Origin: [Pasteurella] aerogenes
GTDB lineage: Bacteria > Pseudomonadota > Gammaproteobacteria > Enterobacterales > Pasteurellaceae
Length of the DNA stretch: 24,000 nucleotides
NCBI GenBank assembly: GCA_900637275.1
Contig: LR134362.1
Location: forward strand, 769,884-793,883
Direction of reading: 5' to 3'
Shown: positions 2 through 23,853 of the stretch, in pieces
Numbering within the stretch: the first letter of the stretch is position 1
Layout: every line of letters begins with the position of its first letter
Notes under the pieces: model-generated
Database searches by the model: none
What the model was told of the DNA's origin: nothing
Seen by the model: only the letters and a program-made list of their open reading frames with translations
Position numbers and translations under genes: made by a program

Positions 2-3000
2 TTATTACAACGTATCGTTAATGAATTTTGGCGCACGCATTTTTATCATCAATCCGTTGCTGCAACTCGTTATATTTTCGCCCAATGTCGTACGCCGGCG
101 CAATTATTGGATAAAATTGCCTCGCAACTTTCCGGCGCCGCGTTAAAACCGCGTATTGATGCACCGCACTTATTAGACGGTGATATATCTTCTTTTTTAA
201 GCGCAATTAGCCCGTTGTTGTCAACATTAAACGAATTTAAACAAACTTGGTTAAGTGTCGCTCCTGATTTACATGCGCAGATGAAAGAAAAGAAAACTGT
301 TCGTGTGGATTGGTTAGATTCCCGTTTTGCCGAGTTACACTTTTGGGCAAGCGATCCGAATGTGGTTTCAGTACCGGAAAAACTCCATTATTTCACCACG
401 GAGGCAATCAACAAAAGTAAAAATCCCGTGGAACATCCAATATTTGCCAAAGTAGATCAGCTGATTGCTGAAATTGGCACGCAAATTGATACTTTAGAAG
501 CCGTTTTTTTATATCATTGCATTAACGCCATTCGGCAACGTTGGTTTGAATATAAATTAAATCATCGCCAAAAAGGTTTTAACGATTTATTACGGTTGGT
601 GCATGATGCCTTGCGTGGCGAGCAAGGAGAGCGTTTAGCGGAATTAATTCGGCAGCAATTTCCTTTTGCCATGATTGACGAATTTCAGGATACGGACGCG
701 CTACAATATCAAATTTTTGCCACGGTTTATCTCTCACCGCAAGCGAAAGATAGCGGATTTATTATGATCGGCGATCCGAAACAATCCATTTATAAATTTC
801 GCGGTGCCGATATTTTTACTTATCTTAAAGCGGCAAAACAGGCGAAACAACGTTACACGTTAACGGAAAATTGGCGTTCTGGTCAGCCGCTGATTGATTG
901 TGTTAATCGTTTTTTTGATTTTCAGCAACCGCCACCATTTTTATATCAAGATATTCAATTTTTACCGGTGCAGGCGGGGAGTGAGAAAGCCGATTTTGTG
1001 TTGGATGGAAAAATTGAACCGCCCATGCGTTGTTATGTGGGAGAGGCGAAAAATTTTGCCGACTGTTGTGCTAATTCCATTCAGCATTGGCTAAAAAGTG
1101 CGCTGGAAAATCAAGCCAACATCGCAGATGCACCGTTACAAGCCAAAAATATCGCAGTTTTGGTGCGCAATGCGTCACAAGCGGAAATGATTAAGCAAGC
1201 CTTATTAACGCGGGGTATTGCTTCAGTGTATTTATCCGATAAAAGCAATGTGTTTGACAGCCCTGTGGCAATGGATATGCTACAAATTTTGTATGCCTGT
1301 TTTAATCCGTTAAACGAAAGAACCTTGCTACGCGCTATTTCTTGTAGTCTTTTTGCCTTAAGCAGCGAGCAGCTGTACCAAATTCGACAAAATGAAAACC
1401 AATGGGAAATGTGGGTTGAAACTTTTCTTGCTTACCAAAAATTATGGCAGCAACAAGGTGTGTTGGTTATGTTACATTATTTGTTGCAAGAACAACAAAT
1501 TAGCGAAAAATTATTGGCACTGCCGCAAGGGGAACGTAAATTAACGGATTTTTTGCATTTGGCGGAATTATTGCAACAAGCCACCCGTTTAAATGATACG
1601 GAAGCGGCGTTATTACATTGGTTCGAAAAGCAAATTCAAGGCAAAGCACGTTTAACGGAAAATATCCGTTTGGAAAGCGAACGGGAATTGGTCAAAATCG
1701 TGACCATCCATAAATCTAAAGGCTTGGCTTATGATGTGGTGTGGTTACCATTTATTGCCAACGCGTTGATTAATCACAGTGATCCGATTGAAAGCTATTA
1801 TGATAGTGATGCAGATGAAATGTTTTGGGATATGAATGGCACACATGCTGGTGAACGTCTGCAAGAAAAAATGGCGGAAGAATTGCGCTTATTGTACGTT
1901 GCTTTAACTCGAGCGAAATATCAGGTAGTGATGGCGTTGCCGGAACAATTTAAAGATAATTGGAGCGCGTTGTTATATTGCCTTACGCAAGGTCAAATCG
2001 GCGATCAGCCGAAAATTAAAGCTAAATTTGACAAAAGTGCGGTCAATTTAATTGAAGATTTAAAATCTCTGTCAACCAATTTAGCTATTGAGGTACAACC
2101 GATGACTGCTTTAGAAGTCTTGCCGCCTTTATCTGATACTGTACCGGAAGAACTATTGAGTAGCGCGTCATTTCACGGGCATATCCAACGGGATTGGCAA
2201 GTCAGTAGCTTTAGTAAATTATTGGAACAACATCAACGTTTGTTGGCAGAACAAAATGCTGAACGGAGTGGCGAAAGAGCGGTGGAAATGTCGCCAATTT
2301 TCGACGTGGCAAAAGATTATGATCAGCAATTTGCGATTTCAGATGAAATACTTAAAGAAACCGCCGCCGAATTAATATGTGAGGAAGCGGAAATTGTATC
2401 TTATCCTTTGGGTTTTTCTCCCTTCGATTTTCCTCATGGTCCTCATATCGGTAGCGCATTGCACCGTTATTTTGAGAAAAATGAGTTTGCGCAATTTACT
2501 GATGCGGATAAGTTGCACGATTTTTGCCATGGATTAATGTTAAGCGAAGATTGGGTAGCGCCTTTGCAGCAATGGTTTAATGCTATTTTACATACGCCAT
2601 TAATTACCAATGAAAACCTAAGTTTGGAGCAAATTTCGCGTAAAAATGCGTTGCGTGAGTTGCAGTTTTATTTACAAGTCAACCAAAAATTTAGTGCGGA
2701 AAAATTTAACTTGTTACTTGAAAAATATCATCATTTAAAATCTAACCCATTAATTTCTTATGAATTTAATGGAATGTTACGCGGTTTTATCGATTTAGTT
2801 TTTCGTCATCAAGGTAAATATTATATTATGGATTATAAATCCAATTTTTTAGGCAGCCTCGCTGCCGATTATGCTCCATCGGCATTAGCGCAAACGATGT
2901 TAAACAGTCATTATGATTGGCAATATTTGTTGTATTGCGTGGCATTACATCGTTATCTGAAATCGCGCGATCCGGATTATCAATATGAACGCCATTTTGG

Positions 3001-3127
3001 CGGCGTGATTTATGCTTTTTTACGCGGCATGAATGGACAAACTGTTCCGCCAGGGCAAAACGGGCAGGGGATATTTTTTGATAAACCTGACGTACGACTC
3101 ATTGAAGGATTGGAGGAGCTGTTTTAA
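2..3127 (+). CDS. recB: Exodeoxyribonuclease V beta subunit RecB, 5'-truncated by the window edge
   Basis: The frame is open from base 2 with no stop before the listed M at 107, so the N-terminus lies upstream of the window. UvrD-type helicase motifs are present: MIDEFQDTD, GDPKQSIYKFRGADI, TIHKSKGL, LLYVALTRA. The C-terminal RecB-nuclease motif GFIDLVF...YYIMDYKSN is also present. The stop overlaps the recD start (TAATG). Confidence 0.93.
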   Translation, partial: LLQRIVNEFWRTHFYHQSVAATRYIFAQCRTPAQLLDKIASQLSGAALKPRIDAPHLLDGDISSFLSAISPLLSTLNEFKQTWLSVAPDLHAQMKEKKTVRVDWLDSRFAELHFWASDPNVVSVPEKLHYFTTEAINKSKNPVEHPIFAKVDQLIAEIGTQIDTLEAVFLYHCINAIRQRWFEYKLNHRQKGFNDLLRLVHDALRGEQGERLAELIRQQFPFAMIDEFQDTDALQYQIFATVYLSPQAKDSGFIMIGDPKQSIYKFRGADIFTYLKAAKQAKQRYTLTENWRSGQPLIDCVNRFFDFQQPPPFLYQDIQFLPVQAGSEKADFVLDGKIEPPMRCYVGEAKNFADCCANSIQHWLKSALENQANIADAPLQAKNIAVLVRNASQAEMIKQALLTRGIASVYLSDKSNVFDSPVAMDMLQILYACFNPLNERTLLRAISCSLFALSSEQLYQIRQNENQWEMWVETFLAYQKLWQQQGVLVMLHYLLQEQQISEKLLALPQGERKLTDFLHLAELLQQATRLNDTEAALLHWFEKQIQGKARLTENIRLESERELVKIVTIHKSKGLAYDVVWLPFIANALINHSDPIESYYDSDADEMFWDMNGTHAGERLQEKMAEELRLLYVALTRAKYQVVMALPEQFKDNWSALLYCLTQGQIGDQPKIKAKFDKSAVNLIEDLKSLSTNLAIEVQPMTALEVLPPLSDTVPEELLSSASFHGHIQRDWQVSSFSKLLEQHQRLLAEQNAERSGERAVEMSPIFDVAKDYDQQFAISDEILKETAAELICEEAEIVSYPLGFSPFDFPHGPHIGSALHRYFEKNEFAQFTDADKLHDFCHGLMLSEDWVAPLQQWFNAILHTPLITNENLSLEQISRKNALRELQFYLQVNQKFSAEKFNLLLEKYHHLKSNPLISYEFNGMLRGFIDLVFRHQGKYYIMDYKSNFLGSLAADYAPSALAQTMLNSHYDWQYLLYCVALHRYLKSRDPDYQYERHFGGVIYAFLRGMNGQTVPPGQNGQGIFFDKPDVRLIEGLEELF
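163..171 (-). repeat. Hin-type USS core
   Basis: ACCGCACTT, the reverse complement of AAGTGCGGT. Confidence 0.9.
2035..2043 (+). repeat. Hin-type USS core
   Basis: AAGTGCGGT. Confidence 0.9.
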
Positions 3128-5457: not shown

Positions 5458-5886
5458 ATGAAAACTTTTGTAGCAAAACCAGAAACGGTTAAACGCGACT
5501 GGTATGTAGTAGATGCGACAGGTAAAACTTTAGGTCGTTTAGCTACTGAATTAGCACGCCGCTTACGTGGTAAACATAAAGCTGAATATACTCCGCACGT
5601 TGACACTGGTGATTACATCATCGTTATTAACGCGGATAAAGTTGCTGTAACTGGCAAAAAAGAAAGCGATAAAATTTACTACTGGCACACAGGCTATGTA
5701 GGTGGTATCAAACAAGCGACTTTCGCAGAAATGATCCAACGTCGTCCAGAAGCTGTGATTGAGATTGCGGTTAAAGGTATGTTGCCAAAAGGCCCATTAG
5801 GTCGTGCAATGTTCCGTAAATTGAAAGTGTATGCCGGTTCAACTCATGAACACGCAGCACAACAACCACAAGTTTTAGATATTTAA
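5458..5886 (+). CDS. rplM: 50S ribosomal protein L13
   Basis: 142 aa beginning [41 protein letters not shown], the typical L13 sequence and length. Confidence 0.97.
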
Positions 5887-5902: not shown

Positions 5903-6295
5903 ATGGCAGAGAATCAAAACTACGGCACAGGTCGCCGCAAAAGCTCTTCAGCTCGTGTATTTATCAAACCGGGCAGTGGTAAAATCACTATCAACCAACG
6001 TGAATTAGACGTGTATTTCGGTCGCGAAACTTCTCGCATGATCGTGCGTCAACCGTTAGAATTGGTTGGATTAACTGATAAATTAGACCTATACGTTACT
6101 GTAAAAGGTGGCGGTATTTCAGGTCAAGCGGGTGCAATCCGTCACGGTATCACTCGTGCATTGATGGAATACGATGAAACTCTACGTCCTGCATTGCGTG
6201 CAGCGGGCTTTGTTACCCGTGATGCTCGTCGTGTTGAACGTAAAAAAGTGGGTTTACACAAAGCACGTCGTCGTCCACAATACTCCAAACGTTAG
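5903..6295 (+). CDS. rpsI: 30S ribosomal protein S9
   Basis: 130 aa ending in the universally conserved ...[12 protein letters not shown] lies upstream of the ATG. The G of the TAG stop codon (6293-6295) is also the first base of the intron GTGCG. Confidence 0.97.
6271..6287 (+). repeat. 17-nt direct repeat, copy 1 (rpsI 3' end)
   Basis: TCGTCCACAATACTCCA, identical to 7496-7512. Confidence 0.95.
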
Positions 6296-7309
6296 TGCGA
6301 CAAGTTGTCGTACTTATGGCAATAATTCCTTGTATATCAAGGAGTTATTGCTGGAAATGGGTGGTATTTTATCACCTATTTCCAACTTTTCAAGTACTCC
6401 TTTGGGAGTACTTGGGAAGTCAGACAAGAAAAGGGGCGTTGCCCAAGATCTTGTTCTAAGTTGGGAAAATAATCTCCAACTTTATGCGGTAATAAGGTAT
6501 GGTCTTCACTCTGATGTACTTAGTTTCCTTCGTCAGAAGCTAAGAAGAGTAAGAAAGCAAGACCCGTTATCGAAAGACATAACTACCGTTAGTCGCCTAT
6601 ATATAGAGTGACTTGGGTCAAATCCAAAACGTTATGTTGTTCATAAAGAATGATTAAAAGAACCTACTATAAATAAAGTCCCCAAGATTGCCTCAGCACT
6701 CAGAAAAGGCATCAGAACTAAGACGTGGAATATCTTAGGGAGGGAGTGCTCACTTTACATACATTTTCACATTCGCAATCTACGATAATTTGTAGAATGC
6801 TCCTCAATAGTGAATAAAAACACTAAGGATAAACCTTGTTTATTCGTTTTTATGAGCTAGGGATAATTATACCTTAAATTCTCGTTGAAATCACCTTTAA
6901 CACTCACATTAGCTAGGGTTAGCTACCTTCGTCTATTGGATAGGTTATAGGCTATTTACGGAAAATTTGGATATAAACAAAGCTACTTAGTAGCAGAAGT
7001 GAATTTACTTTGTAAAGCTCGGACTTATTTATGCAGTATAGGAAACTAACTTAGTAAGTAGGCGTAAGCTATTATCATCATTGTTGCAATAGGATTATTA
7101 GAAGATATAAGCAGTACAAATAATCTTATGAGGCAACCTGTTATATGGCTAACAGTAGCCTAGGAAAAGTGCATCACTGGCAACGGTGTTGTGTGGAGCA
7201 TTCTGACAATGTACTCCCCGAGAGGGTCAATCGTTATCGTGAGATACGATTGAGATAGGATGAACAACACATCCTAGAGAGGCTAGGCTGGATAGAAAGA
7301 TAAACGTAA
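6295..7309 (+). ncRNA. ORF-free, hairpin-dense 5' unit of the intron, either an extra structured RNA module or a partial intron copy
   Basis: There is no credible ORF. Perfect or near-perfect hairpins lie at 6319-6351 (14 bp), 6353-6383 (11 bp), 6391-6414 (10 bp) and 7230-7250 (GUGA loop). Two U-G/G-U pairs (6326/6344 and 6359/6377) are valid only in plus-strand RNA. Confidence 0.5.
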
Positions 7310-7320
7310 GTGAACAGTTG
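7302..7320 (+). repeat. Degenerate second copy of the exon/intron junction
   Basis: AAACGTAA|GTGAACAGTTG aligns with the real junction AAACGTTA|GTGCGACAAGTTG (6287-6307). Of 21 aligned columns, 17 are identical, 2 are mismatches and 2 are 1-nt gaps. Confidence 0.6.
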
Positions 7321-7495
7321 ATAAACCTCGTTAGAAGAAAGAGCCTACGGTTGTTATTGGCTTAGACCAAAATGGTATGCAGTCGGATATTCTTTTTGAC
7401 GTTGAGAATACGCCATCAAAGTACTGCCGGGGAACAGACTGTATCTTCACTATCCTTGTGATGATAATGGAACTTGGTAAGCCTGTATTTCTGCC

Positions 7496-7512
7496 TCGTC
7501 CACAATACTCCA
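7496..7512 (+). repeat. 17-nt direct repeat, copy 2 (inside the intron)
   Basis: TCGTCCACAATACTCCA is an exact copy of 6271-6287. Its last 5 nt form the left arm of a 9-bp hairpin (7508-7516 with 7531-7539). Confidence 0.95.
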
Positions 7513-8071
7513 TACTGAAACATACTTATAAGTATGGAGAAGAAGAGGAGTAAGAAGGAAAGGCAAGTAAAGCGTAAGCGATACTATTGGGAATGCAGGT
7601 AAGGGAGGTTGGAAAAAGCGAATGCTATGCTGTAATGGCATAGATAGGGTGTGAAATATAACCTAACTCGAAAGGGTGCAGACTTCCAACTGGTCTTTCA
7701 TCGTAAGATGAATAGCAATTCCTTTGAGGGTTATTAGTGTTAGTTTGCCCCATAAAGGCAATTTTAAAAGTTTTCTCGCCTTTTATGGGGAGGGAACAAA
7801 CTAATAACGAATGTAAACAAATTAAAGAAAGCAGGCGTTGAGCCTGTCGGTAGGGCAACTTACTCTACTGTCAATGGTTTGGGAATAACCACTACAATAA
7901 CGGAAATTTCCTACCACTCAACGCCCGTACTCTTTAACCCAATTGGTTACAAGAGGGGTTAAAACTATCGGTATACGGTAGTTCCTCTGTAACATTGCGA
8001 TTGTTTACAAATTGAGGAATTTACCCAACTACCGAGACCTTTTAACTTACCTTGTAATATCAGAGGTAGGT

Positions 8072-9796
8072 ATGAAAGAGCGTAAGCATTATACTGAAAA
8101 GTTAGCTTGCAATCCAGCGACCTCGCACATTTCTAAATGGCATTATGTCAATTGGCATAAAGCGGAAACGTATGTGAAAGGAATGCAAATTCGGATTGCG
8201 AAGGCAACACAGGAAGGCAATTGGCGTAAGGTTAAAAACTTACAACGAATGCTGACCCACTCACATTACGCCAAATTAGTGGCAGTAAAGAGAGTGACTG
8301 AAAATCAAGGTAAGCGAACAAGTGGTGTCGATAAAGTGCTTTGGGATACTCCAGAGACAAAGTGGCGAGCCGCACTATCATTGACGGAAAAAGGATATAA
8401 ACCAAGTCCACTTAGACGAGTGTATATTCCCAAATCGAATGGAAAGAAACGTCCGTTAGGTATTCCAACAATGCGAGATAGAGCAATGCAAGCCCTTTAT
8501 TTATTGGCATTACAACCTGTGGCAGAAACAACCGCAGATAAGGGTTCATATGGGTTTAGACTAAACCGCTCAACGGTTGATGCTATCTCTCATATACACC
8601 AAATTTATTCGCATAAAGGCAAGAAAACCAATCAACCTGTTGAATGGGTGCTTGATGCAGATATCGCAGGTTGTTTTGACCACATAAACCACGATTGGCT
8701 GTTAAAGCATATTCCGATGAATAAACGGATATTGCGAAAATGGCTAAAATCAGGTGTAGTGGAATTTGGACGGTTGAAACGGACAGAGGAAGGTACACCA
8801 CAAGGTGGGATTATCTCGCCAACGCTTGCAAATATGGCATTAGATGGGTTAGAAAAACTGCTTGAAACTCATTTTGGGGAAAAAGGCAGTCGGACAATTC
8901 GAGAAAATAAGACTTACTTAGTACGATATGCGGATGACTTTATCATATCAGGTAAAACGAAAGAATTGCTTGAAAATCAAGTTATCCCACTTATCCAGAA
9001 CTTTCTGAATGAACGAGGTCTATCCTTATCAGCAGAAAAGACAAAAGTGGTACATATTGAGGAAGGTTTTGATTTTCTAGGTTGGAATGTGAGACGTTTT
9101 CGAGGAAAGATACTGAACAGACCAAGTCAAAAGAATGTGAAAGCATTCTATAGCAAGGTCAGGACGGTGATTTCTAAAATGAAAATGGCGAAACAAGAAG
9201 ACCTAATAAGGGTACTCAATCCGATGTTACGAGGTTGGGCAAATTATCATCGAAGCCAAGTGGCAAGCAAGGCATTTGGACGAATGGACGCTATTGTTTG
9301 GAAAGCCTTATGGAAATGGTGTAGACGAAGACATTCCAATAAAGGTATAACGTGGATTAGAAATAAATATTTCTATGATACGGATAAACGTCGTTGGATA
9401 TTTGGCTCAGTTTATACCACACCGAAAGGGGAAACGAAACCAATGGAATTATTCTATTGCGGCTATGTTAAAATCAAACGACACGTCAAAATCAAGTCTG
9501 AATATAATCCGTTTTTACCTGAATGGGAGTTATACGGAGAAAAACTGAGCCAAGAACGTCTGTATGATGAACAGTCGCACAGACGACAATGGCAGGCACT
9601 GTATAAAGACCAACGTGGAAAATGTGCATTATGTGGGTTACCAATCACCAAAGAGACAGGCTGGCACGACCATCATATTGTGTATAGAATGTCTGGAGGC
9701 AGTGATGCGTTAAGCAATCGTTGTTTGGTTCACCCGAATTGCCATATGAAAATTCATGCCTTGAATTTGAATGTTGTGAAACCGACTATTTCATAG
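8072..9796 (+). CDS. Group II intron-encoded protein (reverse transcriptase, maturase X domain, HNH endonuclease domain)
   Basis: RT motifs DADIAGCFDHINH, TPQGGIISPTLANMALDGLE and RYADDFIISG. X/maturase motif LRGWANYHR. C-terminal HNH CALCG...HDHHIVYRMSGG...HPNCHMKIH. The ATG at 8072 with GAGGTAGG upstream is preferred over the in-frame TTG at 8012. Confidence 0.92.
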   Translation: MKERKHYTEKLACNPATSHISKWHYVNWHKAETYVKGMQIRIAKATQEGNWRKVKNLQRMLTHSHYAKLVAVKRVTENQGKRTSGVDKVLWDTPETKWRAALSLTEKGYKPSPLRRVYIPKSNGKKRPLGIPTMRDRAMQALYLLALQPVAETTADKGSYGFRLNRSTVDAISHIHQIYSHKGKKTNQPVEWVLDADIAGCFDHINHDWLLKHIPMNKRILRKWLKSGVVEFGRLKRTEEGTPQGGIISPTLANMALDGLEKLLETHFGEKGSRTIRENKTYLVRYADDFIISGKTKELLENQVIPLIQNFLNERGLSLSAEKTKVVHIEEGFDFLGWNVRRFRGKILNRPSQKNVKAFYSKVRTVISKMKMAKQEDLIRVLNPMLRGWANYHRSQVASKAFGRMDAIVWKALWKWCRRRHSNKGITWIRNKYFYDTDKRRWIFGSVYTTPKGETKPMELFYCGYVKIKRHVKIKSEYNPFLPEWELYGEKLSQERLYDEQSHRRQWQALYKDQRGKCALCGLPITKETGWHDHHIVYRMSGGSDALSNRCLVHPNCHMKIHALNLNVVKPTIS

Positions 9797-9811
9797 TTAA
9801 TAGAAAGGCTT

Positions 9812-9845
9812 GAGCTGTATGCAGAGAAATTTGCTTGTACAGTTC
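9812..9845 (+). ncRNA. Group II intron domain V
   Basis: GAGCTGTATGCAGAGAAATTTGCTTGTACAGTTC is 34 nt, has the AGC catalytic triad at positions 2-4, a two-part helix with a 2-nt bulge, and a GAAA tetraloop. Confidence 0.9.
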
Positions 9846-9848
9846 TTA

Positions 9849-9886
9849 GGGGGCGAAGAGATAGAAATATCTTTTTGCTACCCGAC
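9849..9886 (+). ncRNA. Group II intron domain VI with branch-point A and the 3' splice site
   Basis: GGGGGCGAAGAGATA-GAAA-TATCTTTTTGCTACCC forms a long helix with a GAAA loop. The bulged A at 9880 is followed by CCCGAC, so the intron ends in AC at 9886. Confidence 0.8.
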
Positions 9887-9910
9887 ATTTTTTATTTTCG
9901 TTTATTACAG

Positions 9911-9941
9911 ATTGCAAGCCTTTTGGCTTGCAATTTTTTTT
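9911..9941 (+). terminator. Rho-independent terminator of the rplM-rpsI operon, now downstream of the intron
   Basis: ATTGCAAGCC-TTTT-GGCTTGCAAT forms a 10-bp stem followed by a T8 run. Confidence 0.85.
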
Positions 9942-9969
9942 GTCAAAACAGACTTTTTTAGTATAACCT

Positions 9970-10000
9970 TTGGAAATTCACGTACGCTTTGTGGTAGAAT
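9970..10000 (+). promoter_or_regulatory. Candidate sspA promoter (extended -10)
   Basis: TGgTAGAAT at 9992-10000. There is a weak -35-like TTGGAA at 9970-9975. Confidence 0.4.
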
Positions 10001-10045
10001 ATCCCACTAACTTTTGATTTTATTTTTTAGTCGTCGGAGGAATAG

Positions 10046-10684
10046 ATGACAAGCGCTGCAAATAAACGTTCAATAATGACGCTTTTTTCGAATAAAACAG
10101 ATATTTATTGCCATCAAGTGCGCATTGTACTGGCGGAAAAAGGGGTCGCTTATGAAACGGAAGTTGTAGAACCGCAGGTAATTTCTGAAGATTTAATGGA
10201 GTTAAATCCTTATGGTACCATTCCGACTTTAGTCGATCGCGATTTAGTATTATTTAATTCACGTATTATTATGGAATATCTTGATGAACGTTTTCCTCAT
10301 CCGCCATTGATGCCAGTTTATCCTGTTGCCCGTGGAAAAAGTCGTTTGTTGATGTTGCGTATTGAGCAAGATTGGTATTCTTTATTGGAGCTGGCGGAAA
10401 AAGGAAACGATCAAGAAAAAGCGGATGCATTAAAACGCTTGAAAGAAGAATTACTGGCAATTGCACCGATTTTTAGCCAAACTGCTTATTTTATGAGCGA
10501 AGAATTTAGCTTAGTTGACTGTTATATTGCGCCTTTATTATGGCGTATGCAACAATTAGGTGTTGAGTTTAGTGGCGCTGGTAGCAAAGCGATTAAGGCT
10601 TATATGGATAGAGTATATCAACGCGATTCTTTTTTACAGTCTGTCGGAGAGTCTGCTCCGAAAAACTTAATGGATGATAAATAG
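10046..10684 (+). CDS. sspA: Stringent starvation protein A (GST-like)
   Basis: 212 aa beginning ...KRSIMTLFSNKTDIYCHQVRIVLAEKGVAYE and containing NSRIIMEYLDERFPHPPLMPVYPVARG, the typical SspA sequence. GGAGG lies upstream of the ATG. Confidence 0.93.
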   Translation: MTSAANKRSIMTLFSNKTDIYCHQVRIVLAEKGVAYETEVVEPQVISEDLMELNPYGTIPTLVDRDLVLFNSRIIMEYLDERFPHPPLMPVYPVARGKSRLLMLRIEQDWYSLLELAEKGNDQEKADALKRLKEELLAIAPIFSQTAYFMSEEFSLVDCYIAPLLWRMQQLGVEFSGAGSKAIKAYMDRVYQRDSFLQSVGESAPKNLMDDK

Positions 10685-15874: not shown

Positions 15875-16240
15875 GGGGCTGATTCTGGATTCGACGGGAT
15901 TAGCGAAGCCCAAGGTGCAGGTCGAGGTGCGGTAGGCCTCGTAAACAAACCGCAAAAAAATAGTCGCAAACGACGAACAATACGCTTTAGCAGCTTAATA
16001 ACCTGCTCATAGCCTTCGCTCCCTAGCTTCCGCTCGTAAGACGGGGATAAAGCGGAGTCAACTTAAACGAGATCGTGTGGACGCTTAGGCTTGGAGATCG
16101 AAACACTAAATTGAATCAAGCTAGCTTATTGGTTGCGTGTCTGTCCGCTGGCAGTAAGTGAAATTAAAGACGAGACTAAACCTGTAGTGCTGAAGGTAGA
16201 GTAATTTCGGACGGGGGTTCAACTCCCCCCAGCTCCACCA
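15875..16240 (+). ncRNA. ssrA: tmRNA (SsrA)
   Basis: Starts GGGGCTGATTCTGGATTCGACGGGATT and ends GGACGGGGGTTCAACTCCCCCCAGCTCCACCA. The tag ORF at 15966-15998 reads GCA AAC GAC GAA CAA TAC GCT TTA GCA GCT TAA, encoding ANDEQYALAA. Confidence 0.97.
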
Positions 16241-16257
16241 TTTTAACCTTTCACAAG

Positions 16258-16274
16258 GTGTCATAAAGGGTCAA
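16258..16274 (+). repeat. Direct repeat copy 1 between ssrA and int (candidate integrase arm site)
   Basis: GTGTCATAAAGGGTCAA compared with GTGTCATATAATGTCAA at 16331-16347, 13 of 17 identical. AAAGGGTCAA also pairs with TTGACCCTTT at 16295-16304. Confidence 0.4.
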
Positions 16275-16330
16275 ATTTATTGTAAATCAATGAGTTGACC
16301 CTTTTCTTTACTGCCACATACTGTCAAGAA

Positions 16331-16347
16331 GTGTCATATAATGTCAA
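16331..16347 (+). repeat. Direct repeat copy 2 (candidate integrase arm site; contains TATAAT)
   Basis: GTGTCATATAATGTCAA. The embedded TATAAT (16337-16342) is also the best -10 candidate for int. Confidence 0.4.
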
Positions 16348-16415
16348 TTTTTTTGTAGTAATTTTGGTAGTAAAAGATTAATATTTGAAAAATCTTACTA
16401 CATAAATCCTGAATT

Positions 16416-17696
16416 ATGCCTAAAACAGTTAAGCAGTTGACCGCAACTAAAATTAATACATCTAAACCAAAAGAGAAGATTTATTATCTCTCTGACGGTC
16501 AAGGCTTGCGTCTATCAATTAAGCCTAACGGGACTAAAACGTGGCTTTTCAATTATTTTAAACCGTACATTAGAAAGCGTACAGAAAAAACTATAGGTGT
16601 TTATCCTATTGTATCTCTTCAGGATGCAAGAGCTAAAGCGAATGAATATAGAGCATTGTTAGTCAAAGATATAGATCCACAAGAATATGAGCGAAATAAG
16701 CACATAGAAGAACGCAATGCAATAGTTAATACATTCGCTCATGTTGCGGATGAATGGCTTGTCTATCGATCCAAAATCGGAAAAGAACGAAATAATTACA
16801 CGGATAAAACCAGGATAGATACAGAAAGACGGGTAAAGTTTCTAAAAGATGTGATTGGTGATGTGCCTTTTGCTAAGTTAACACTACAGCACGGTTTAGT
16901 TGCGCTTGAAACATTGAGAGCAGAAGGAAAACTGAATGAGCTGAAAAAAAGATATTTAGTGCTAAAAGCGATTGGTGAGTATGGGGAAAGGTTTAATTTT
17001 TGGAAAAAAAATGAATGGCGGTATTTAAGTTTTGAGTTACCAATGCCTGATAAAAACAAGCATCACGCAGCAATCCATTACAAAGATTTACCGCACTTTT
17101 TGAAAGACTTGAGAAAAGCAAGGGTGGCACATACGTCACTATTGGCTATTCTGTGGGGGATGTTGAACGCATCGCGCGTGAGTGAAACGGTTGGTGCTAA
17201 GTTTGAAGATATTCGCGAACATCAGTTCTTACCCGATGAGCTGGTGTGGTTTGTTACCGTGTCAAAAGGTGGTAAAGGTGAACGTGACCACCTTGTGCCA
17301 TTATCGAAACAAGCGCGTAATTTGTTAAACCATATTAAGGCTCATACTAAGCGAGAATATCTATTCCCATCTGTAAAATCGGGCAATACACACTTAAACG
17401 AGCAGACACCAAACAATGTAATCAAAACAATGTGCGGTGGACGTTATAAGGGTGTAATGACTAATCATGGCTTGCGCACACTGTTTAGCTCTTATTGTAA
17501 TGACAATCGCCTAGAGCTTGGATTAGACAAGGAGATCATTGAAGTTTGCCTAAGTCACTTAAATAGTGATGATGTGCGCAATGCCTATAATAGAGCAGAA
17601 TATTTGCCTTATCGCTTAAAAACCTATCAGGCTTGGGCGAACTATGTTGCAGAATGTGCAGATGGGCTATTTGATGAATTACAAGAAGAAATATAG
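16416..17696 (+). CDS. int: Tyrosine recombinase/integrase (P4-like, with an N-terminal arm-binding domain)
   Basis: 426 aa. The N-terminus LTATKINTSKPKEKIYYLSDGQGLRLSIKPNGTKTWLFNY is the typical DUF4102-type arm-binding domain. Catalytic residues are recognisable in ...SRVSE..., HGLRTLFSS and HLNSDDVRNAYNRAEYL. Confidence 0.9.
   Translation: MPKTVKQLTATKINTSKPKEKIYYLSDGQGLRLSIKPNGTKTWLFNYFKPYIRKRTEKTIGVYPIVSLQDARAKANEYRALLVKDIDPQEYERNKHIEERNAIVNTFAHVADEWLVYRSKIGKERNNYTDKTRIDTERRVKFLKDVIGDVPFAKLTLQHGLVALETLRAEGKLNELKKRYLVLKAIGEYGERFNFWKKNEWRYLSFELPMPDKNKHHAAIHYKDLPHFLKDLRKARVAHTSLLAILWGMLNASRVSETVGAKFEDIREHQFLPDELVWFVTVSKGGKGERDHLVPLSKQARNLLNHIKAHTKREYLFPSVKSGNTHLNEQTPNNVIKTMCGGRYKGVMTNHGLRTLFSSYCNDNRLELGLDKEIIEVCLSHLNSDDVRNAYNRAEYLPYRLKTYQAWANYVAECADGLFDELQEEI
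17090..17098 (-). repeat. Hin-type USS core (inside int)
   Basis: ACCGCACTT. Confidence 0.9.
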
Positions 17697-17839
17697 GCTT
17701 TAACTTCACTTTCAGGAATTTTTCTAGATCTCCCGAATTTAAAGGATTTTAGCTTTTTACTGCGTATTAAGCGAAAGATTGTAGATTCTGAGGCTAGTCC
17801 ACAATCAACAAGTTCTTTTACAGAATAGTATTTTTCCAT
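17642..17839 (-). CDS. AlpA/excisionase-family HTH DNA-binding protein
   Basis: 65 aa. YYSVKELVDCGLASESTIFRLIRSKKLKSFKFGRSRKIPESEV matches the excisionase/AlpA HTH pattern. GGAG lies upstream of the ATG. The 3' end overlaps the int 3' end by 55 nt (convergent). Confidence 0.7.
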   Translation of the reverse strand: MEKYYSVKELVDCGLASESTIFRLIRSKKLKSFKFGRSRKIPESEVKAYISSCNSSNSPSAHSAT

Positions 17840-17852
17840 TTATTTCTCCAAT

Positions 17853-17876
17853 AAAAAAAACCTAGCTTTCGCTAGG
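17853..17876 (-). terminator. Rho-independent terminator immediately upstream of the xis/alpA-like gene
   Basis: The minus strand reads CCTAGC-GAAA-GCTAGG followed by T8, then the GGAG and ATG of the 65-aa gene. Confidence 0.75.
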
Positions 17877-17965
17877 CTTGTTCGTTGATCCATTCTCTTA
17901 GGTTTTTCCACGTTCGGTAGTCACAATCGTGACCTAAGTAACAAAATTCTCTATCATCTCTTACA

Positions 17966-18163
17966 TCATCTGTGTAACTCCAGCCCTGTGTCTAAGTCTC
18001 TGATGATAACGTTTTTTGTATTTTGGCTGAGATCTTGCCAATGTTGGCGTATGAAATCAGCACAATCACTGACTGCGTAGGTCATTCGTCCTATGCAGTA
18101 TCTGACGGACTGTATGGCGAGCGTTTGAAAAGTGCGGTGGTTTACGTTGATGGTTTTAGTCAT
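17966..18163 (-). CDS. Hypothetical phage protein
   Basis: A 65-aa ORF in the operon, overlapping the upstream gene by 8 nt. It contains an RYCIGRMTY motif seen in small phage proteins. Function is unknown. Confidence 0.5.
   Translation of the reverse strand: MTKTINVNHRTFQTLAIQSVRYCIGRMTYAVSDCADFIRQHWQDLSQNTKNVIIRDLDTGLELHR
18130..18138 (+). repeat. Hin-type USS core (prophage)
   Basis: AAGTGCGGT. Confidence 0.9.
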
Positions 18164-18371
18164 TGATTACTCTCACGGTTATTTCATATTTTGGTTTATC
18201 GTGTTCTAACAAAATAACAGGTTCATTACGTTCAATACAATGTTGAGCAACACAATATAATGCCATTAACGTTACATCTTGCTTTTCTTTCCAATAAAGC
18301 CCATTTTTTTCGAGATGACCTGCGTAGATTTGATTAGTCAATGGTGATACGCCTAATTTAATTTCTTTCAT
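18156..18371 (-). CDS. Hypothetical phage protein
   Basis: A 71-aa ORF. Its start overlaps the upstream stop (ATGA-type coupling at 18368-18371). Confidence 0.5.
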   Translation of the reverse strand: MKEIKLGVSPLTNQIYAGHLEKNGLYWKEKQDVTLMALYCVAQHCIERNEPVILLEHDKPKYEITVRVIND

Positions 18372-18565
18372 TTTGTCGCCTCTTTTTTAAAAGGTAAAAT
18401 AAAACTCAATCGTTGGTTTGATTTGCCATCTTCCAATACAAATTCCATATTGCCATCTTCTTTTTCTAGCCAACAAAGGAATTTAATATCTTCATAGCCT
18501 AAGGTTGTACAAATTCCCTGAAGATGAGAGAGAATTTTGGCAAATTTTTCTGCTTCTAATTGCAT
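18368..18565 (-). CDS. Hypothetical phage protein (shortened start)
   Basis: 65 aa from the ATG at 18565 (MQLEAEKF...), with GGGAGA upstream. The longer listed start at 18640 would lie inside the terminator hairpin at 18622-18651. Confidence 0.45.
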   Translation of the reverse strand: MQLEAEKFAKILSHLQGICTTLGYEDIKFLCWLEKEDGNMEFVLEDGKSNQRLSFILPFKKEATK

Positions 18566-18621
18566 AAATCTCCCGCCCATTGTTCGATTTGTTGGATAAG
18601 TTTGTTCATTTTGTTTTCTCC

Positions 18622-18651
18622 ATAAAAGAAAACCGCCCATAAAGAGCGGTT
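18622..18651 (-). terminator. Terminator-like hairpin after the Bro-N gene
   Basis: The minus strand reads AACCGC-TCTTTATGG-GCGGTT followed by TTCTTTT. Confidence 0.5.
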
Positions 18652-18659
18652 GGTTGTGG

Positions 18660-19295
18660 TTAAAATCTTGCTATTTGTTTTGGTTCTTCCAGTAGGCTCA
18701 GCATTCCTTTGACGAACATAATACGTTCGCTTTTGGCGTGAACATATTTTCGTGCTTTGGTAAGCGCGTTTTCGGTCGGACCATTTAAATTGTAAAGGTA
18801 ATGCCCGCCGATGGTTTTATCGATTTCTTTCGCAAGATACGGATGTTCTTTGCGTATCTTATTTCCCATTTCGTAAGCACCGTTGAGCGAGTGGAATAGA
18901 TTGACGATGATGTGTAGTGCTTCTTCGTCTGATTTGATTTCTTCAAGCGGTACGATTTGCGTAGAATTTTGCGAATATTGTCCTGTCTTGCGAATTTGCG
19001 GTAGCACTTCTTCAAAGACCCAGTTTTGAAAATCGATAGCTTGAGATTTGTTAGATCTAAAAATGATCCGATATAAATTCGGTTCGTTGATGAAAGTTAC
19101 TTCTTGTTTTCCGCCTTTGGTAAGGGTATACATTTTATGTAGACCCTTTTCATTAAATCTAAAGCGACTTGAATTTGCATTGCTTATATCAAGAGCTATA
19201 CACACATCTGTTAAACAAAAGTGCGGTTCATTGTTGATTACTTCAATGCGAACAGGATTAGATTTGAAATTGAAAGTAGAGATTTGATTTTGCAT
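18660..19295 (-). CDS. Bro-N domain protein (antirepressor-like)
   Basis: 211 aa. The N-terminus FNFKSNPVRIEVINNEPHFCLTDVCIALDI...FINEPNLYRIIFRSNKSQAIDFQNWVFEEVLPQIRKTGQY fits the Bro-N/Ant N-terminal domain. AGGAG sits 6 nt before the ATG. Confidence 0.75.
   Translation of the reverse strand: MQNQISTFNFKSNPVRIEVINNEPHFCLTDVCIALDISNANSSRFRFNEKGLHKMYTLTKGGKQEVTFINEPNLYRIIFRSNKSQAIDFQNWVFEEVLPQIRKTGQYSQNSTQIVPLEEIKSDEEALHIIVNLFHSLNGAYEMGNKIRKEHPYLAKEIDKTIGGHYLYNLNGPTENALTKARKYVHAKSERIMFVKGMLSLLEEPKQIARF
19219..19227 (+). repeat. Hin-type USS core (prophage)
   Basis: AAGTGCGGT. Confidence 0.9.
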
Positions 19296-19348
19296 TTTAT
19301 GCTCCTAGGATTTTAGTTATTGCCACTTAGTAGGTGGACAGGGTTCAA

Positions 19349-19494
19349 CTACCGATCCTAGTCGGCGGAGCTTATTTCCCTTTCGGGTATTGTATTTGGC
19401 TCTCTCACCCCGTCCATAACTTGGCAATACCTAAAATTTAGGCATAAAAAAACCGCTTTTATTGTCGGAGCGAGAAACCGACTAGGATTTGTAG
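19349..19494 (-). promoter_or_regulatory. Long-range inverted repeat in the leader of the Bro-N gene
   Basis: Plus-strand CTACCGATCCTAGTCGG (19349-19365) matches the reverse complement of CCGACTAGGATTTGTAG (19478-19494), giving 15 of 17 complementary positions, 11 of them contiguous. The same ATCCTAG heptamer recurs at the Shine-Dalgarno region (19305-19311). Confidence 0.5.
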
Positions 19495-19501
19495 TGCGGT
19501 T
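19446..19501 (-). terminator. Compound terminator after the DUF2513-like gene
   Basis: The minus strand reads AACCGC ... GTCGG-TTTCTCGCT-CCGAC ... GCGGTT followed by T7. Confidence 0.55.
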
Positions 19502-19530
19502 ATCTTAATCCGAAGGGGAGCGGTTGTCAA
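19502..19530 (-). promoter_or_regulatory. Candidate sigma70 promoter P2 for the Bro-N operon
   Basis: On the minus strand: TTGACA (19530-19525), a 17-nt spacer, then TAAGAT (19507-19502). It shares the motif ATTGACAACCGCyCC with P1. Confidence 0.55.
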
Positions 19531-19535
19531 TATCT

Positions 19536-19892
19536 CTATGGCAACATTGCACTAATTGTAGCGGTTGCCACTTGCTTAATAACATCAAAACTTAAATCAA
19601 GGCTTTTGCTTTGGACGGTGCTTTTGACTTTGTTCCATACGCTGTCGTTGCGGATTTTGTCTAAGAACTCGTGACCTTGCCAAGTGAGCGAAAGCGCAGC
19701 ATAGTTTTCTTCTTCCATCGTGGAAATATCAAGTGCTTCAATAATTCCGGCATTTTTAAGCAATTTGTAGTGATAAGCGACGGTTTTAAAATCATAACCT
19801 TGAATATCTGTACTCATTAACCAACTTGTACTATCTGCCTTTTCTTCAAGTTTGAGCAAAATTTTTCGGATTAAATCCCAGTTGCGTTTCAT
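19536..19892 (-). CDS. DUF2513-like winged-helix protein
   Basis: 118 aa. MKRNWDLIRKILLKLEE...YHYKLLKNAGIIEA...LTWQGHEFLDKIRNDSVWNK matches my recollection of the DUF2513 family pattern. Confidence 0.6.
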   Translation of the reverse strand: MKRNWDLIRKILLKLEEKADSTSWLMSTDIQGYDFKTVAYHYKLLKNAGIIEALDISTMEEENYAALSLTWQGHEFLDKIRNDSVWNKVKSTVQSKSLDLSFDVIKQVATATISAMLP

Positions 19893-19923
19893 TTAGGTTT
19901 CCTTTTTAGTCGGAGTATGGTTA

Positions 19924-19952
19924 AACTTAATTTGAATAGGGGCGGTTGTCAA
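19924..19952 (-). promoter_or_regulatory. Candidate sigma70 promoter P1 for the DUF2513-like gene
   Basis: On the minus strand: TTGACA (19952-19947), a 17-nt spacer, then TAAGTT (19929-19924). Confidence 0.5.
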
Positions 19953-19959
19953 TCATAAT
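19932..19959 (+). promoter_or_regulatory. Candidate promoter of the Abi-alpha-like gene, overlapping divergent P1
   Basis: TTGAAT (19932-19937), a 16-nt spacer, then CATAAT (19954-19959). Confidence 0.45.
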
Positions 19960-19976
19960 GAAATCCTCTTTATCTA

Positions 19977-20013
19977 GTGATAAGATTATTGCGATCAAAC
20001 TTTAATCTATCAC
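19977..20013. promoter_or_regulatory. Inverted repeat (candidate operator or leader hairpin) upstream of the Abi-alpha-like gene
   Basis: GTGATAAGATTA (19977-19988) and TAATCTATCAC (20003-20013) are reverse complements apart from a 1-nt indel. Confidence 0.4.
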
Positions 20014-20034
20014 ATTAACAAAGAGGACTTTACT

Positions 20035-20916: not shown

Positions 20917-21087
20917 TTTTCTCTTATGAATAATTTCTTTTATATCATCAGCATATTTTTCCATTATCTGATTTTGCTCGAAAAAGAATTTATCAAACCA
21001 TTTTGTTACTTGTGTAATGGTAAACCAATGCACAAGTAATGAAACAATAAATGAAGTAAATGCTGAAGTGATGATGATTGTTTCCAT
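20911..21087 (-). CDS. Unlisted 58-aa single-pass membrane protein ORF
   Basis: METIIITSAFTSFIVSLLVHWFTITQVTKWFDKFFFEQNQIMEKYADDIKEIIHKRKS. AAGGA sits 7 nt before the ATG at 21087. The ORF falls below the 60-aa cutoff of the ORF track. Its stop overlaps the abi gene 3' end by 6 nt. Confidence 0.45.
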   Translation of the reverse strand: METIIITSAFTSFIVSLLVHWFTITQVTKWFDKFFFEQNQIMEKYADDIKEIIHKRKS

Positions 21088-21101
21088 TTTGTAATCCTTA
21101 T

Positions 21102-21123
21102 AAAAAAGCCCACGTTTGTGGGC
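21102..21123 (-). terminator. Rho-independent terminator after the 93-aa gene
   Basis: The minus strand reads GCCCAC-AAAC-GTGGGC followed by T6. Confidence 0.7.
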
Positions 21124-21131
21124 TGTGTTGG

Positions 21132-23844: not shown

Positions 23845-23853
23845 AATTGATCC

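What the first reader, a model, noticed from the sequence alone, without database searches (positions are those of the whole stretch)
6295..7309. About 1 kb of ORF-free, hairpin-dense RNA between the intact 5' splice site and the canonical ribozyme body
The distance from GUGCG (6295) to the IEP ATG (8072) is 1,777 nt, well over twice what bacterial group II introns normally carry. The extra segment has no credible ORF on either strand. It contains a run of long, nearly perfect hairpins at 6319-6351 (14 bp), 6353-6383 (11 bp) and 6391-6414 (10 bp). It also has nested stems around 6430-6480 and a GUGA-capped stem at 7230-7250. The two non-Watson-Crick positions in the first two hairpins are U-G and G-U on the plus strand, which would be A-C mismatches on the minus strand. 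The structure therefore appears to be selected in the same sense as the rpsI/intron transcript. No second domain V-like sequence is visible, so this is not a complete nested intron. It could be a novel peripheral RNA domain, a relic of a second intron, or an independent structured ncRNA hitch-hiking in the r-protein operon 3' UTR.
Basis: partly seen in the sequence, partly recalled or inferred. Interest (0 to 1): 0.7.

Follow-up and report, generated by a model that had tools for sequence, protein, structure and literature searches.

The report
Known extra domain of stop-codon intron
The extra ~750 bases are a real, conserved, folded RNA domain, but it is the already described "subdomain Ia" that marks a known lineage of bacterial group II introns inserted into stop or start codons of housekeeping genes, here the rpsI gene of [Pasteurella] aerogenes.

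Summary
A 3,592-nt group II intron (6295-9886) sits between the 2nd and 3rd base of the rpsI stop codon (TA|A becomes TAG). Intron-free strains of the same species fix both boundaries. About 750 nt of ORF-free, hairpin-rich RNA (6311-7060) lie between the 5' end and the canonical ribozyme.

The hairpins are far more stable than shuffles and weaker on the minus strand. They covary strongly in 12-13 related introns: 72 of 163 pairs show changes on both sides, against 21-33 in slid controls.

The feature is not new. It matches the "5'-subterminal insertion / subdomain Ia" of the specialized IIB1 (CL1-RT) intron clade that targets start or stop codons (Michel et al. 2007; Gomes et al. 2025, PMC12584367). 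In the groEL introns, deleting Ia lowers retrohoming about 8-fold and shifts self-splicing toward hydrolysis.

New here are the rpsI/tuf/gapA subfamily in Pasteurellaceae and its unusually long Ia (750 to about 930 nt), for which I give a covariation-supported structure. I also found an unexpected copy of the rpsI 3' end inside domain II (7496-7515).

The parts
5903..6295 (+). rpsI (ribosomal protein S9) CDS. The stop codon TAG is 6293-6295, and its G (6295) is the first intron nucleotide. The spliced or empty allele reads TAA.
   Evidence: Pfam Ribosomal_S9 on the identical protein; empty-site loci L003/4/6/7/8/9
6295..9886 (+). Complete group II intron, 3,592 nt (IIB1-type ribozyme plus RT/maturase/HNH ORF), inserted between TA and A of the rpsI stop codon and upstream of the operon terminator.
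6295..6310 (+). Canonical intron 5' end: GUGCG, then CAAG (6301-6304), the 5' strand of the basal helix of domain I. It pairs with CUUG at 7473-7476.
   Evidence: CAAG/CUUG (14 introns), CACG/CGUG (30), CGAG/CUCG (3) and CGCG/CGCG (2) covary across the clade. Sequence checked.
6311..7060 (+). Subdomain Ia, the 750-nt 5'-subterminal insertion. Closing helix UACUUA (6311-6316) / UAAGUA (7055-7060). A spine of long-range helices: 6456-6464/7046-7054, 6663-6681/7021-7042, 6753-6758/7012-7017.
   Evidence: 163 pairs, 91% paired, 72 pairs with changes on both sides; the closing helix has 3 compensatory pairs in L105. Searches show relatives with 51-87 nt where the window has 842.
6319..6455 (+).
   Evidence: z -8.1, -6.4, -6.3, -3.2, helices 3-7, with 6, 6, 10, 4 and 2 pairs changed on both sides
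6475..6579 (+). The most conserved Ia module (AAGGUAUG.UCUUCAC ... GUAAGAAAGCAAGA.CC): a three-tier stem with a variable tip.
   Evidence: (helices 8-10). Covariance model R1 finds it once in the window and in none of 35 other loci searched with the model.
6760..7010 (+). Distal, fast-evolving part of Ia. It is replaced or resized in the tuf intron and in the Gallibacterium and L105 introns.
   Evidence: helices 18-22, 73-89% paired
7061..7070 (+). First canonical domain I element after Ia: the GNRA hairpin GGC-GUAA-GCU, homologous to AUGGC-GUAA-GCCAU of the Ia-less relative L001.
7137..7282 (+). Canonical domain I segment, a full-length match to Rfam RF02012 group-II-D1D4-7.
   Evidence: 99.7 bits, E 4e-20
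7397..7403 (+). EBS1 (UGACGUU). It pairs with IBS1 AACGUUA (6288-6294).
   Evidence: the same alignment column is complementary to exon -6..-1 in 45 of 53 introns. Checked.
7332..7340 (+). EBS2 loop by position. In the window it is poorly complementary to the exon.
7496..7561 (+). A 66-nt insertion in the terminal loop of the first domain II hairpin. It begins with a 19/20 copy (7496-7515) of the rpsI 3' end (6271-6290).
7715..8071 (+). Domain IV segment upstream of the ORF, about 320 nt longer than in L001 and conserved among Pasteurellaceae introns.
8072..9796 (+). Intron-encoded protein, 574 aa: RVT_N, RVT_1, GIIM (maturase), HNH.
9810..9886 (+). Domains V-VI (Rfam RF00029). The intron ends at ...CUACCCGAC|A.
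9909..9936 (+). Intrinsic terminator of the rplM-rpsI operon, downstream of the intron. No + strand terminator-like site lies inside the intron.

Best explanation
Positions 6311-7060 are subdomain Ia of a specialized subgroup IIB1 group II intron. [quoted passage not shown] The intron (6295-9886) is a retrotransposon that homes into the stop codon of rpsI in [Pasteurella] aerogenes.

Shown here:
- It is transcribed with rplM-rpsI, before the operon terminator.
- Ia folds as a rod.
- Ia is kept by purifying selection at the RNA level in every full-length relative in Pasteurellaceae, whichever host gene is targeted (rpsI, tuf, gapA).

Inferred from published work on the groEL members of the clade, not tested for this intron: Ia is not needed for catalysis or for target choice. 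It raises the yield of mobile lariat RNP. It favours branching over hydrolytic splicing, and/or it stabilises the RNA or docks a host factor. The effect on retrohoming shows when expression is low.
For: Boundaries and mobility:
- Empty and filled alleles exist in one species.
- Two intron lineages use insertion registers one base apart (TA|A and TAA|). EBS1 differs to match each register.

Position in the ribozyme:
- The basal helix of domain I covaries across 49 introns.
- Ia has its own closing helix with 3 compensatory pairs.
- The next element aligns with an Ia-less relative.

Continuum in the clade: the distance from the 5' end to RF02012 is 51-87 nt in two Ia-less plasmid introns and 273-929 nt in 51 chromosomal relatives. 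Many of these visibly abut start or stop codons.

Structure under selection:
- 94.3% and 91.1% of cells are paired.
- 42 of 89 and 72 of 163 pairs have changes on both sides, against 11-21 and 21-33 in slid controls. 0 of 500 shuffles reach the observed value.
- The Ia 5' half is 82-83% identical in tuf and gapA introns whose RT is only 70-73% identical.

Literature: PMC12584367 describes the same clade, the same insertion point, insertion between the 2nd and 3rd base of UAA giving UAG, and a 300-700 nt Ia with no similarity between subfamilies. It reports about 8-fold lower retrohoming for the Ia deletion mutant at low expression with unchanged specificity, and faster, mostly hydrolytic self-splicing of Avi.groEL without Ia.

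The best E. coli chromosomal matches to the window's domain I are groEL stop-codon introns of that type.
Against: - No experiment or expression data exist for this intron, so function is carried over from relatives whose Ia shares no sequence with it.
- In my neighbour-joining tree of RT proteins the E. coli groEL intron groups with two Ia-less plasmid introns, not with the window's group. The published monophyly of all Ia-bearing introns is therefore not reproduced. Ia could have been gained or lost more than once.
- The window copy has almost no EBS2-IBS2 complementarity, so its present activity is uncertain.
- The covariation counts come from 12-13 related sequences, and the structure was predicted on the same alignment.
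Confidence: 0.85

Rival explanations
1. Ia is a neutral expansion segment. It would be sequence that grew at a permissive, solvent-exposed site of domain I and is merely tolerated, with no function of its own.
For: Length at this site varies continuously from 51 to 929 nt across relatives. Ia domains of different subfamilies share no detectable similarity (PMC12584367). The distal part is rapidly resized. Avi.groEL splices faster in vitro without Ia.
Against: Compensatory changes maintain more than 20 helices. The proximal half is more conserved in nucleotides (82-83%) than the RT is in amino acids (70-73%) across introns in three host genes. No full-length Pasteurellaceae copy lacks it. Published deletion lowers retrohoming about 8-fold.
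Confidence: 0.1
2. The segment is a relic of a second group II intron nested in domain I, that is, a decayed twintron.
For: Its size fits an ORF-less intron. Nested and tandem copies do occur in this family (tandem junctions CCCGAC|GTGCGAC in L014, L015, L019). A short repeat, AAGARGAGTAAGAARG, is shared by Ia and domain II (D3).
Against: There is no domain V/VI or other group II match in 6295-7136 on either strand at E<=10. No GUGYG lies at its 5' edge. The architecture is a closed rod with a spine of long-range helices, not six domains. Every subfamily of the clade has an insertion at the same point.
Confidence: 0.03
3. The segment is an independent structured ncRNA or mobile element hitch-hiking in the rpsI 3' UTR, unrelated to the intron.
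For: It is highly structured and ORF-free, and it lies directly after an r-protein gene.
Against: It lies inside the intron, between the 5' splice site and the 3' strand of the basal helix of domain I. It is absent from all six empty rpsI-sspA spacers. The Ia HMM and the covariance model find it only inside such introns. A metagenome scan with a conserved 20-mer gave only three unrelated chance hits. No promoter enrichment and no internal terminator were found.
Confidence: 0.02
4. The segment encodes a small protein (open frame 6312-6608, or the 145-codon ORF 6174-6611).
For: A 99-104 codon stop-free frame exists in the window.
Against: There is no Pfam match. The frame is interrupted in 11 of 12 homologs. 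Substitutions are compensatory in stems, and indels are not multiples of three.
Confidence: 0.01

Closest known systems
EcKTE56.groEL and Avi.groEL: specialized subgroup IIB1 introns with subdomain Ia (Michel et al. 2007 Biochimie 89:542; Ferat et al. 2003; Gomes et al. 2025, PMC12584367)
   Same: IIB1-type ribozyme, with an RT that has RVT_N, maturase and HNH domains. Insertion between the 2nd and 3rd base of a UAA stop codon of a housekeeping gene, giving UAG. A large ORF-free domain inserted just after the 5' strand of the basal helix of domain I. Natural tandem copies. E. coli groEL introns (L110/L111: 3,230 nt, 437 nt from the 5' end to RF02012) are the best E. coli chromosomal matches to the window's domain I.
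   Different: The host gene is rpsI rather than groEL. Ia is 750 nt here and up to about 930 nt in relatives, above the published 300-700 nt range. There is no sequence or covariance-model similarity between the Ia domains. The RT is only 53% identical. There are extra insertions in domains II and IV.
rpsI stop-codon intron of E. coli CP027328 (L098) and Orbaceae introns (L018, L019)
   Same: By RT these are the nearest relatives outside Pasteurellaceae (64-66% identity). L098 uses the same rpsI TAA| site.
   Different: The 5' end to RF02012 distance is only 415-444 nt. Their Ia is not alignable with the window's. They have no domain II exon copy.
EcI5-like and IncHI2-plasmid IIB1 introns without Ia (L002 Shigella/E. 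coli plasmids; L001 Leclercia and others). The name EcI5 for L002 rests on my memory of its 5' sequence, not on a test.
   Same: The domain I-III core aligns over window 7140-7703 at 69-78% identity. They share the 5' GUGCGAC motif and the domain V/VI models.
   Different: Only 51-87 nt lie before RF02012, and the introns are about 2,350-2,395 nt long. They sit in plasmid intergenic DNA, not in stop codons. RT identity is 49-51%.
B.c.I4-type introns with a 3' extension (PMC2691827)
   Same: Another lineage-specific, structured peripheral extension of a bacterial group II ribozyme that influences splicing.
   Different: That extension is 53-56 nt and lies at the 3' end after domain VI. It is a different class and position.

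Membership tests
Specialized subgroup IIB1 start/stop-codon intron clade (Michel 2007; Gomes 2025) | Group II ribozyme of the IIB1 type | tested here: met
   Full-length RF02012 (99.7 bits) and RF00029 (62.5 bits) matches. The domain I-III core aligns with E. coli groEL introns and plasmid IIB1 introns. EBS1 and the basal helix of domain I lie at the family's positions. The subgroup label itself is taken from the literature on those relatives.
Specialized subgroup IIB1 start/stop-codon intron clade (Michel 2007; Gomes 2025) | Encodes a CL1-lineage RT with a C-terminal endonuclease domain | tested here: inconclusive
   The domain architecture RVT_N + RVT_1 + GIIM + HNH is present. The RT is 53% identical to the E. 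coli groEL intron RT and 64% to the E. coli rpsI intron RT. No reference CL1 phylogeny was available to assign the lineage formally.
Specialized subgroup IIB1 start/stop-codon intron clade (Michel 2007; Gomes 2025) | Inserted within or immediately next to an initiation or termination codon of a housekeeping gene | tested here: met
   The insertion lies between TA and A of the rpsI stop codon, fixed by six empty alleles. Relatives sit at TAA| of rpsI, at the tuf and gapA stop codons, and directly before ATG starts.
Specialized subgroup IIB1 start/stop-codon intron clade (Michel 2007; Gomes 2025) | [quoted passage not shown] | tested here: met
   750 nt lie between the basal-helix strand CAAG (6301-6304, pairing with 7473-7476; covaries) and the first canonical hairpin (7061-7070). 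The domain is closed by its own helix. The equivalent linker is about 22 nt in L001.
Specialized subgroup IIB1 start/stop-codon intron clade (Michel 2007; Gomes 2025) | Monophyly with the groEL introns, to the exclusion of Ia-less IIB1 introns such as EcI5 | tested here: inconclusive
   In the NJ tree of 42 RTs the window groups with all other Ia-bearing chromosomal introns. The E. coli groEL intron, however, groups with the two Ia-less plasmid introns. There was no outgroup, no bootstrap and no ribozyme-based tree.
Twintron / nested group II intron | A second set of group II domains (at least a 5' GUGYG and domain V) inside the outer intron | tested here: not met
   The only domain V/VI match is 9810-9886. 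Nothing is found in 6295-7136 on either strand at E<=10.

The most novel reading that the evidence does not exclude
The Pasteurellaceae rpsI introns carry, besides Ia, an internal decoy of their own homing site. This is a copy of rpsI exon positions about -24 to -8 placed in the loop of the first domain II hairpin (7496-7515). The decoy would pair with the EBS2 loop and gate 5'-exon binding, for example to stop the excised lariat from re-attacking the abundant spliced rpsI mRNA, or to time splicing relative to translation termination. Ia would act as the docking platform for a host factor at stop codons. Nothing of this kind is described in the one paper on this clade that I could read.
Probability: 0.15. 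Interest if true: 0.65.

Novelty: new member of a known kind. Interest (0 to 1): 0.35.

Why it matters
The function of subdomain Ia, and how these introns find start and stop codons, are stated open questions (PMC12584367). This window does not answer them, but it adds three useful things.

- A subfamily in Pasteurellaceae targets rpsI, tuf and gapA and has the longest Ia seen here (750 to about 930 nt).
- The sequences are diverse enough to give a covariation-supported secondary structure of an Ia domain. The structure separates a conserved proximal half from a dispensable-looking tip, which is a guide for deletion and pull-down experiments.
- There is natural population evidence of activity: empty, filled, shifted-register, tandem and decayed alleles.

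For annotation, the result shows that a 1.8-kb 'non-coding gap' after an r-protein gene can be entirely intron. It also shows that Rfam models cover only about 220 nt of such an intron.

Tried and rejected
- Rfam at E<=10 over 6000-10100 gave only junk matches inside Ia (plastid psbA 3'UTR, E 4.1; MIR815, E 9.8).
- BLASTN of 6295-8071 against plasmids matched only from query position 841 onward, and nothing in Ia.
- A metagenome scan with the invariant Ia 20-mer ACCTACTATAAAKAAAGYCC gave three loci with no similarity to the intron, so these are chance hits.
- I tested whether Ia base-pairs with the flanking exons using RNAduplex against shuffled Ia in 51 introns. Mean z was about 0 for both exons, so I rejected it. 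The apparent match of hairpin 6405-6419 to the exon is not conserved in relatives.
- An nhmmer profile of whole Ia and a covariance model of its most conserved module found no counterpart in the Ia of Orbaceae, E. coli, Pseudomonas, Burkholderiaceae or Xanthomonadales introns.
- I rejected RNAalifold's first helix (6295-6302/6306-6313). It never covaries, and nucleotides 6301-6304 belong to the covarying basal helix of domain I.
- Coding potential is rejected.
- The exact-sequence look-up of the window's RT found nothing. The look-up of P0007 also found nothing.
- Michel et al. 2007 is not held in the library, so I could not check whether an rpsI intron was already listed there.
Full report
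**What is there.** The window comes from [Pasteurella] aerogenes: exact matches to its RecD and SspB proteins are on record. The gene order is rplM (5458-5886), rpsI (5903-6295), a group II intron, then sspA-sspB. Rfam finds a full-length group-II-D1D4-7 match at 7137-7282 and domains V/VI at 9810-9886. The ORF 8072-9796 encodes an RT with RVT_N, RVT_1, maturase and HNH domains.

Looking up the exact S9 protein returned ten loci. Six have an empty 158-nt rpsI-sspA spacer reading ...AAACGTTAATTTTTTATTTT.... The window and L011 read ...AAACGTTA|GTGCG...CTACCCGAC|ATTTTTT. The intron is therefore exactly 6295-9886 (3,592 nt). It sits between the 2nd and 3rd base of the TAA stop codon, which becomes TAG, and it lies upstream of the operon terminator at 9909-9936.

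**Checking the observation.** The ATG lies 1,777 nt from the 5' end. The hairpins at 6319-6351, 6352-6384 and 6386-6419 and the nested stem 6423-6455 fold at -18.4, -19.2, -21.2 and -12.9 kcal/mol, with z-scores of -8.1, -6.4, -6.3 and -3.2.

No second domain V-like element appears at E<=10. The only long open frame has no Pfam hit and is broken in 11 of 12 homologs.

The box is too wide, however. From 7061 onward the sequence aligns with ordinary relatives, and the 'GUGA-capped stem' is part of the RF02012 consensus.

**Where the extra RNA sits.**
- A plasmid relative (L001) has GUGCGACAAGAAGUCGUGA, a 22-nt linker, and then the hairpin AUGGC-GUAA-GCCAU.
- The window has GUGCGACAAGUUGUCG, then 750 nt, then GGC-GUAA-GCU (7061-7070).
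- Nucleotides 6301-6304 (CAAG) pair with 7473-7476 (CUUG), 1.17 kb downstream.
- This basal helix of domain I covaries across the family: CAAG/CUUG in 14 introns, CACG/CGUG in 30, CGAG/CUCG in 3 and CGCG/CGCG in 2.
- The insert is closed by its own helix, 6311-6316/7055-7060. In L105 three of its six pairs are changed compensatorily.

The 1,140 nt in excess of L001 divide as follows: about 750 nt in this domain, 66 nt in a domain II loop (7496-7561), and about 320 nt in domain IV before the ORF.

**Relatives.**
- A genome scan with the RT gave 80 loci.
- In 51 of them, plus the same-species loci, the distance from GUGCGAC to the RF02012 start ranges widely. It is 273-275 nt in Xanthomonadales, 308-500 in Burkholderiaceae, 397-596 in Pseudomonas, 415-468 in Orbaceae and Perlucidibaca, 617 in a Ralstonia MAG, and 840-929 in Pasteurellaceae.
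- The two plasmid introns have 51 and 87 nt.
- Intron lengths follow the same order: 2,350-2,395, then 2,650-3,070, then 3,560-3,645 nt.
- Many junctions visibly abut stop codons (TAA|, TAG|, TA|G) or precede ATG starts.
- Further look-ups found the same kind of intron at the rpsI stop codon of an E. coli chromosome (L098), at the tuf stop codon in a metagenome (L101), and at the gapA stop codon of Actinobacillus seminis (L097).

**It is a known feature.** Gomes, Toffano-Nioche, Gautheret and Costa (Mob DNA 2025, PMC12584367), citing Michel et al. 2007, describe a family of subgroup IIB1 introns with these properties:
[quoted passage not shown] - The insertions share no similarity except among close relatives.
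- The type members, Avi.groEL and EcKTE56.groEL, sit between the 2nd and 3rd base of UAA, turning it into UAG.
- Tandem copies form.

According to that paper the function of Ia is unknown. It reports that deleting Ia lowers EcKTE56.groEL retrohoming about 8-fold at low expression without changing specificity. It also reports that Avi.groEL lacking Ia self-splices faster, mostly by hydrolysis.

The window matches each of these structural traits. The best E. coli chromosomal matches to its domain I are groEL stop-codon introns (L110/L111: 3,230 nt, 437 nt before RF02012).

**Is the domain under selection?** Yes.
- Thirteen distinct sequences of the 5' half give 89 predicted pairs, 94.3% paired. 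Of these, 42 have changes on both sides, against 11-21 when partners are slid by 1-3 columns. None of 500 shuffles reaches the observed value.
- Twelve sequences of the whole domain give 163 pairs, 91.1% paired, with 72 changed on both sides against 21-33 in slid controls.
- The fold is a rod. Its spine consists of helices 6311-6316/7055-7060, 6456-6464/7046-7054, 6663-6681/7021-7042 and 6753-6758/7012-7017. Side branches hang from the spine, and the tip (about 6760-7010) is variable.
- The proximal half is 82-83% identical in the tuf and gapA introns, whose RTs are only 70-73% identical.
- Two decayed copies still keep it: L005 with an internal deletion, and L097, which lacks part of domain I.
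- No full-length Pasteurellaceae copy lacks it.

One caveat applies. The sequences are related, and the structure was predicted on the same alignment.

**Evidence of mobility.**
- Within [P.] aerogenes and close relatives there are empty sites and TA|A insertions (window, L011).
- There are also TAA| insertions by a lineage whose Ia is only 78% identical (L010).
- EBS1, located at 7397-7403 because that column is complementary to exon -6..-1 in 45 of 53 introns, reads UGACGUU or UAGCGUU in TA|A introns. It reads UUAACGU in TAA| introns.
- Head-to-tail tandems occur in L014, L015 and L019.

**What Ia does not do.**
- It shows no tendency to be complementary to either flanking exon (mean z about 0 in 51 introns). 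This agrees with the published unchanged specificity.
- It has no counterpart in other subfamilies by profile HMM or covariance model.
- It is not found outside introns.

**Open points.**
- My NJ tree of RTs puts the E. coli groEL intron with the two Ia-less plasmid introns rather than with the window's group. I could not reproduce the monophyly of all Ia-bearing introns. Single versus multiple origin of Ia stays open.
- The window copy has essentially no EBS2-IBS2 complementarity, so its current activity is unproven.

**An unexpected extra.** All ten distinct Pasteurellaceae rpsI introns carry a 42-72 nt insertion in the terminal loop of the first domain II hairpin. The loop is only 4-5 nt in the tuf, gapA, Orbaceae, plasmid and Pseudomonas relatives shown. 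In E. coli L098 the BLAST alignment leaves only about 38 nt where the window has about 98.
- The insertion begins with a copy of the rpsI 3' end. In the window 7496-7515 matches 6271-6290 at 19 of 20 positions.
- The copy keeps exon positions about -24 to -9 but not IBS1.
- In L105 both the host exon and the copy read AATTCTC instead of AATACTC.
- In three introns (L010, L012, L106) the EBS2 loop pairs better with the copy than with the real exon. The real exon gives a longer pairing run in none, and only in L014 is it marginally more stable (-3.0 against -2.6 kcal/mol).

This suggests an internal 5'-exon mimic. The sample is small, and the window itself shows no pairing, so I report it only as a lead.

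**Verdict.** It is also an already described hallmark of a known intron lineage. This is a new member, the rpsI subfamily in Pasteurellaceae, with an Ia longer than the published range.

Noticed in passing
window 7496-7561 (copy 7496-7515 of 6271-6290): A 66-nt insertion in the loop of the first domain II hairpin starts with a 19/20 copy of the rpsI 3' end. It is present in all ten distinct Pasteurellaceae rpsI introns and absent from the tuf, gapA, E. coli rpsI and Orbaceae relatives. In L105 the copy shares the host's AATTCTC variant. In L010, L012 and L106 the EBS2 loop pairs better with the copy than with the real exon.
   Followed up: partly
window 6293-6295 and 7397-7403; L010, L012, L013-L016, L105, L106, L108, L098: There are two insertion registers one base apart in the rpsI stop codon: TA|A in the window, L011 and L017, and TAA| in the others. 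EBS1 sequences match each register (UGACGUU/UAGCGUU versus UUAACGU). This implies independent invasions of [P.] aerogenes by two intron lineages.
   Followed up: yes
L014 (5874|5875), L015 (5815|5816), L019 (5825|5826): Head-to-tail tandem intron copies with the junction CCCGAC|GTGCGAC, the arrangement reported experimentally for EcKTE56.groEL.
   Followed up: partly
L005 5394-6536; L097 1850-3000; L096: Decayed copies. L005 ([P.] aerogenes CP058953) keeps Ia plus the last about 490 nt but lacks the ribozyme core and most of the ORF. The A. seminis gapA intron lacks the equivalent of window 6737-7336. Pasteurella testudinis has a 5'-truncated tandem copy.
   Followed up: partly
L098 and L099 (E. 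coli CP027328.1): The same E. coli chromosome carries one intron copy at the rpsI stop codon and an identical copy inside an amino-acid permease gene, at a look-alike site cttACGTTAA|.
   Followed up: no
window 7715-8071: The domain IV segment upstream of the RT ORF is about 320 nt longer than in L001. It is conserved among Pasteurellaceae introns, including a long hairpin around 7737-7800 and the inverted repeat 7822-7842/7917-7937.
   Followed up: no
window 7332-7340: The EBS2 loop of the window copy (GAAGAAAG) has almost no complementarity to the rpsI exon, whereas related introns have UUGAG pairing with CUCAA. The window copy may depend on EBS1 alone or be impaired.
   Followed up: partly
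window 15875-24000: tmRNA gene (15875-16240; 270 bits) followed directly by a prophage-like island. The island has an integrase (16416-17696), a Bro-N protein (18660-19295, minus strand), Abi_alpha (20035-20916), YqaJ and RecT recombinases (22397-23844, minus strand), and an sRNA-Xcc1 match at 19329-19414 on the minus strand.
   Followed up: partly
IEP tree: The E. coli groEL intron RT is closer to the Ia-less plasmid introns L001/L002 (62% identity) than to the window's RT (53%). Ia may have been lost or gained more than once.
   Followed up: partly
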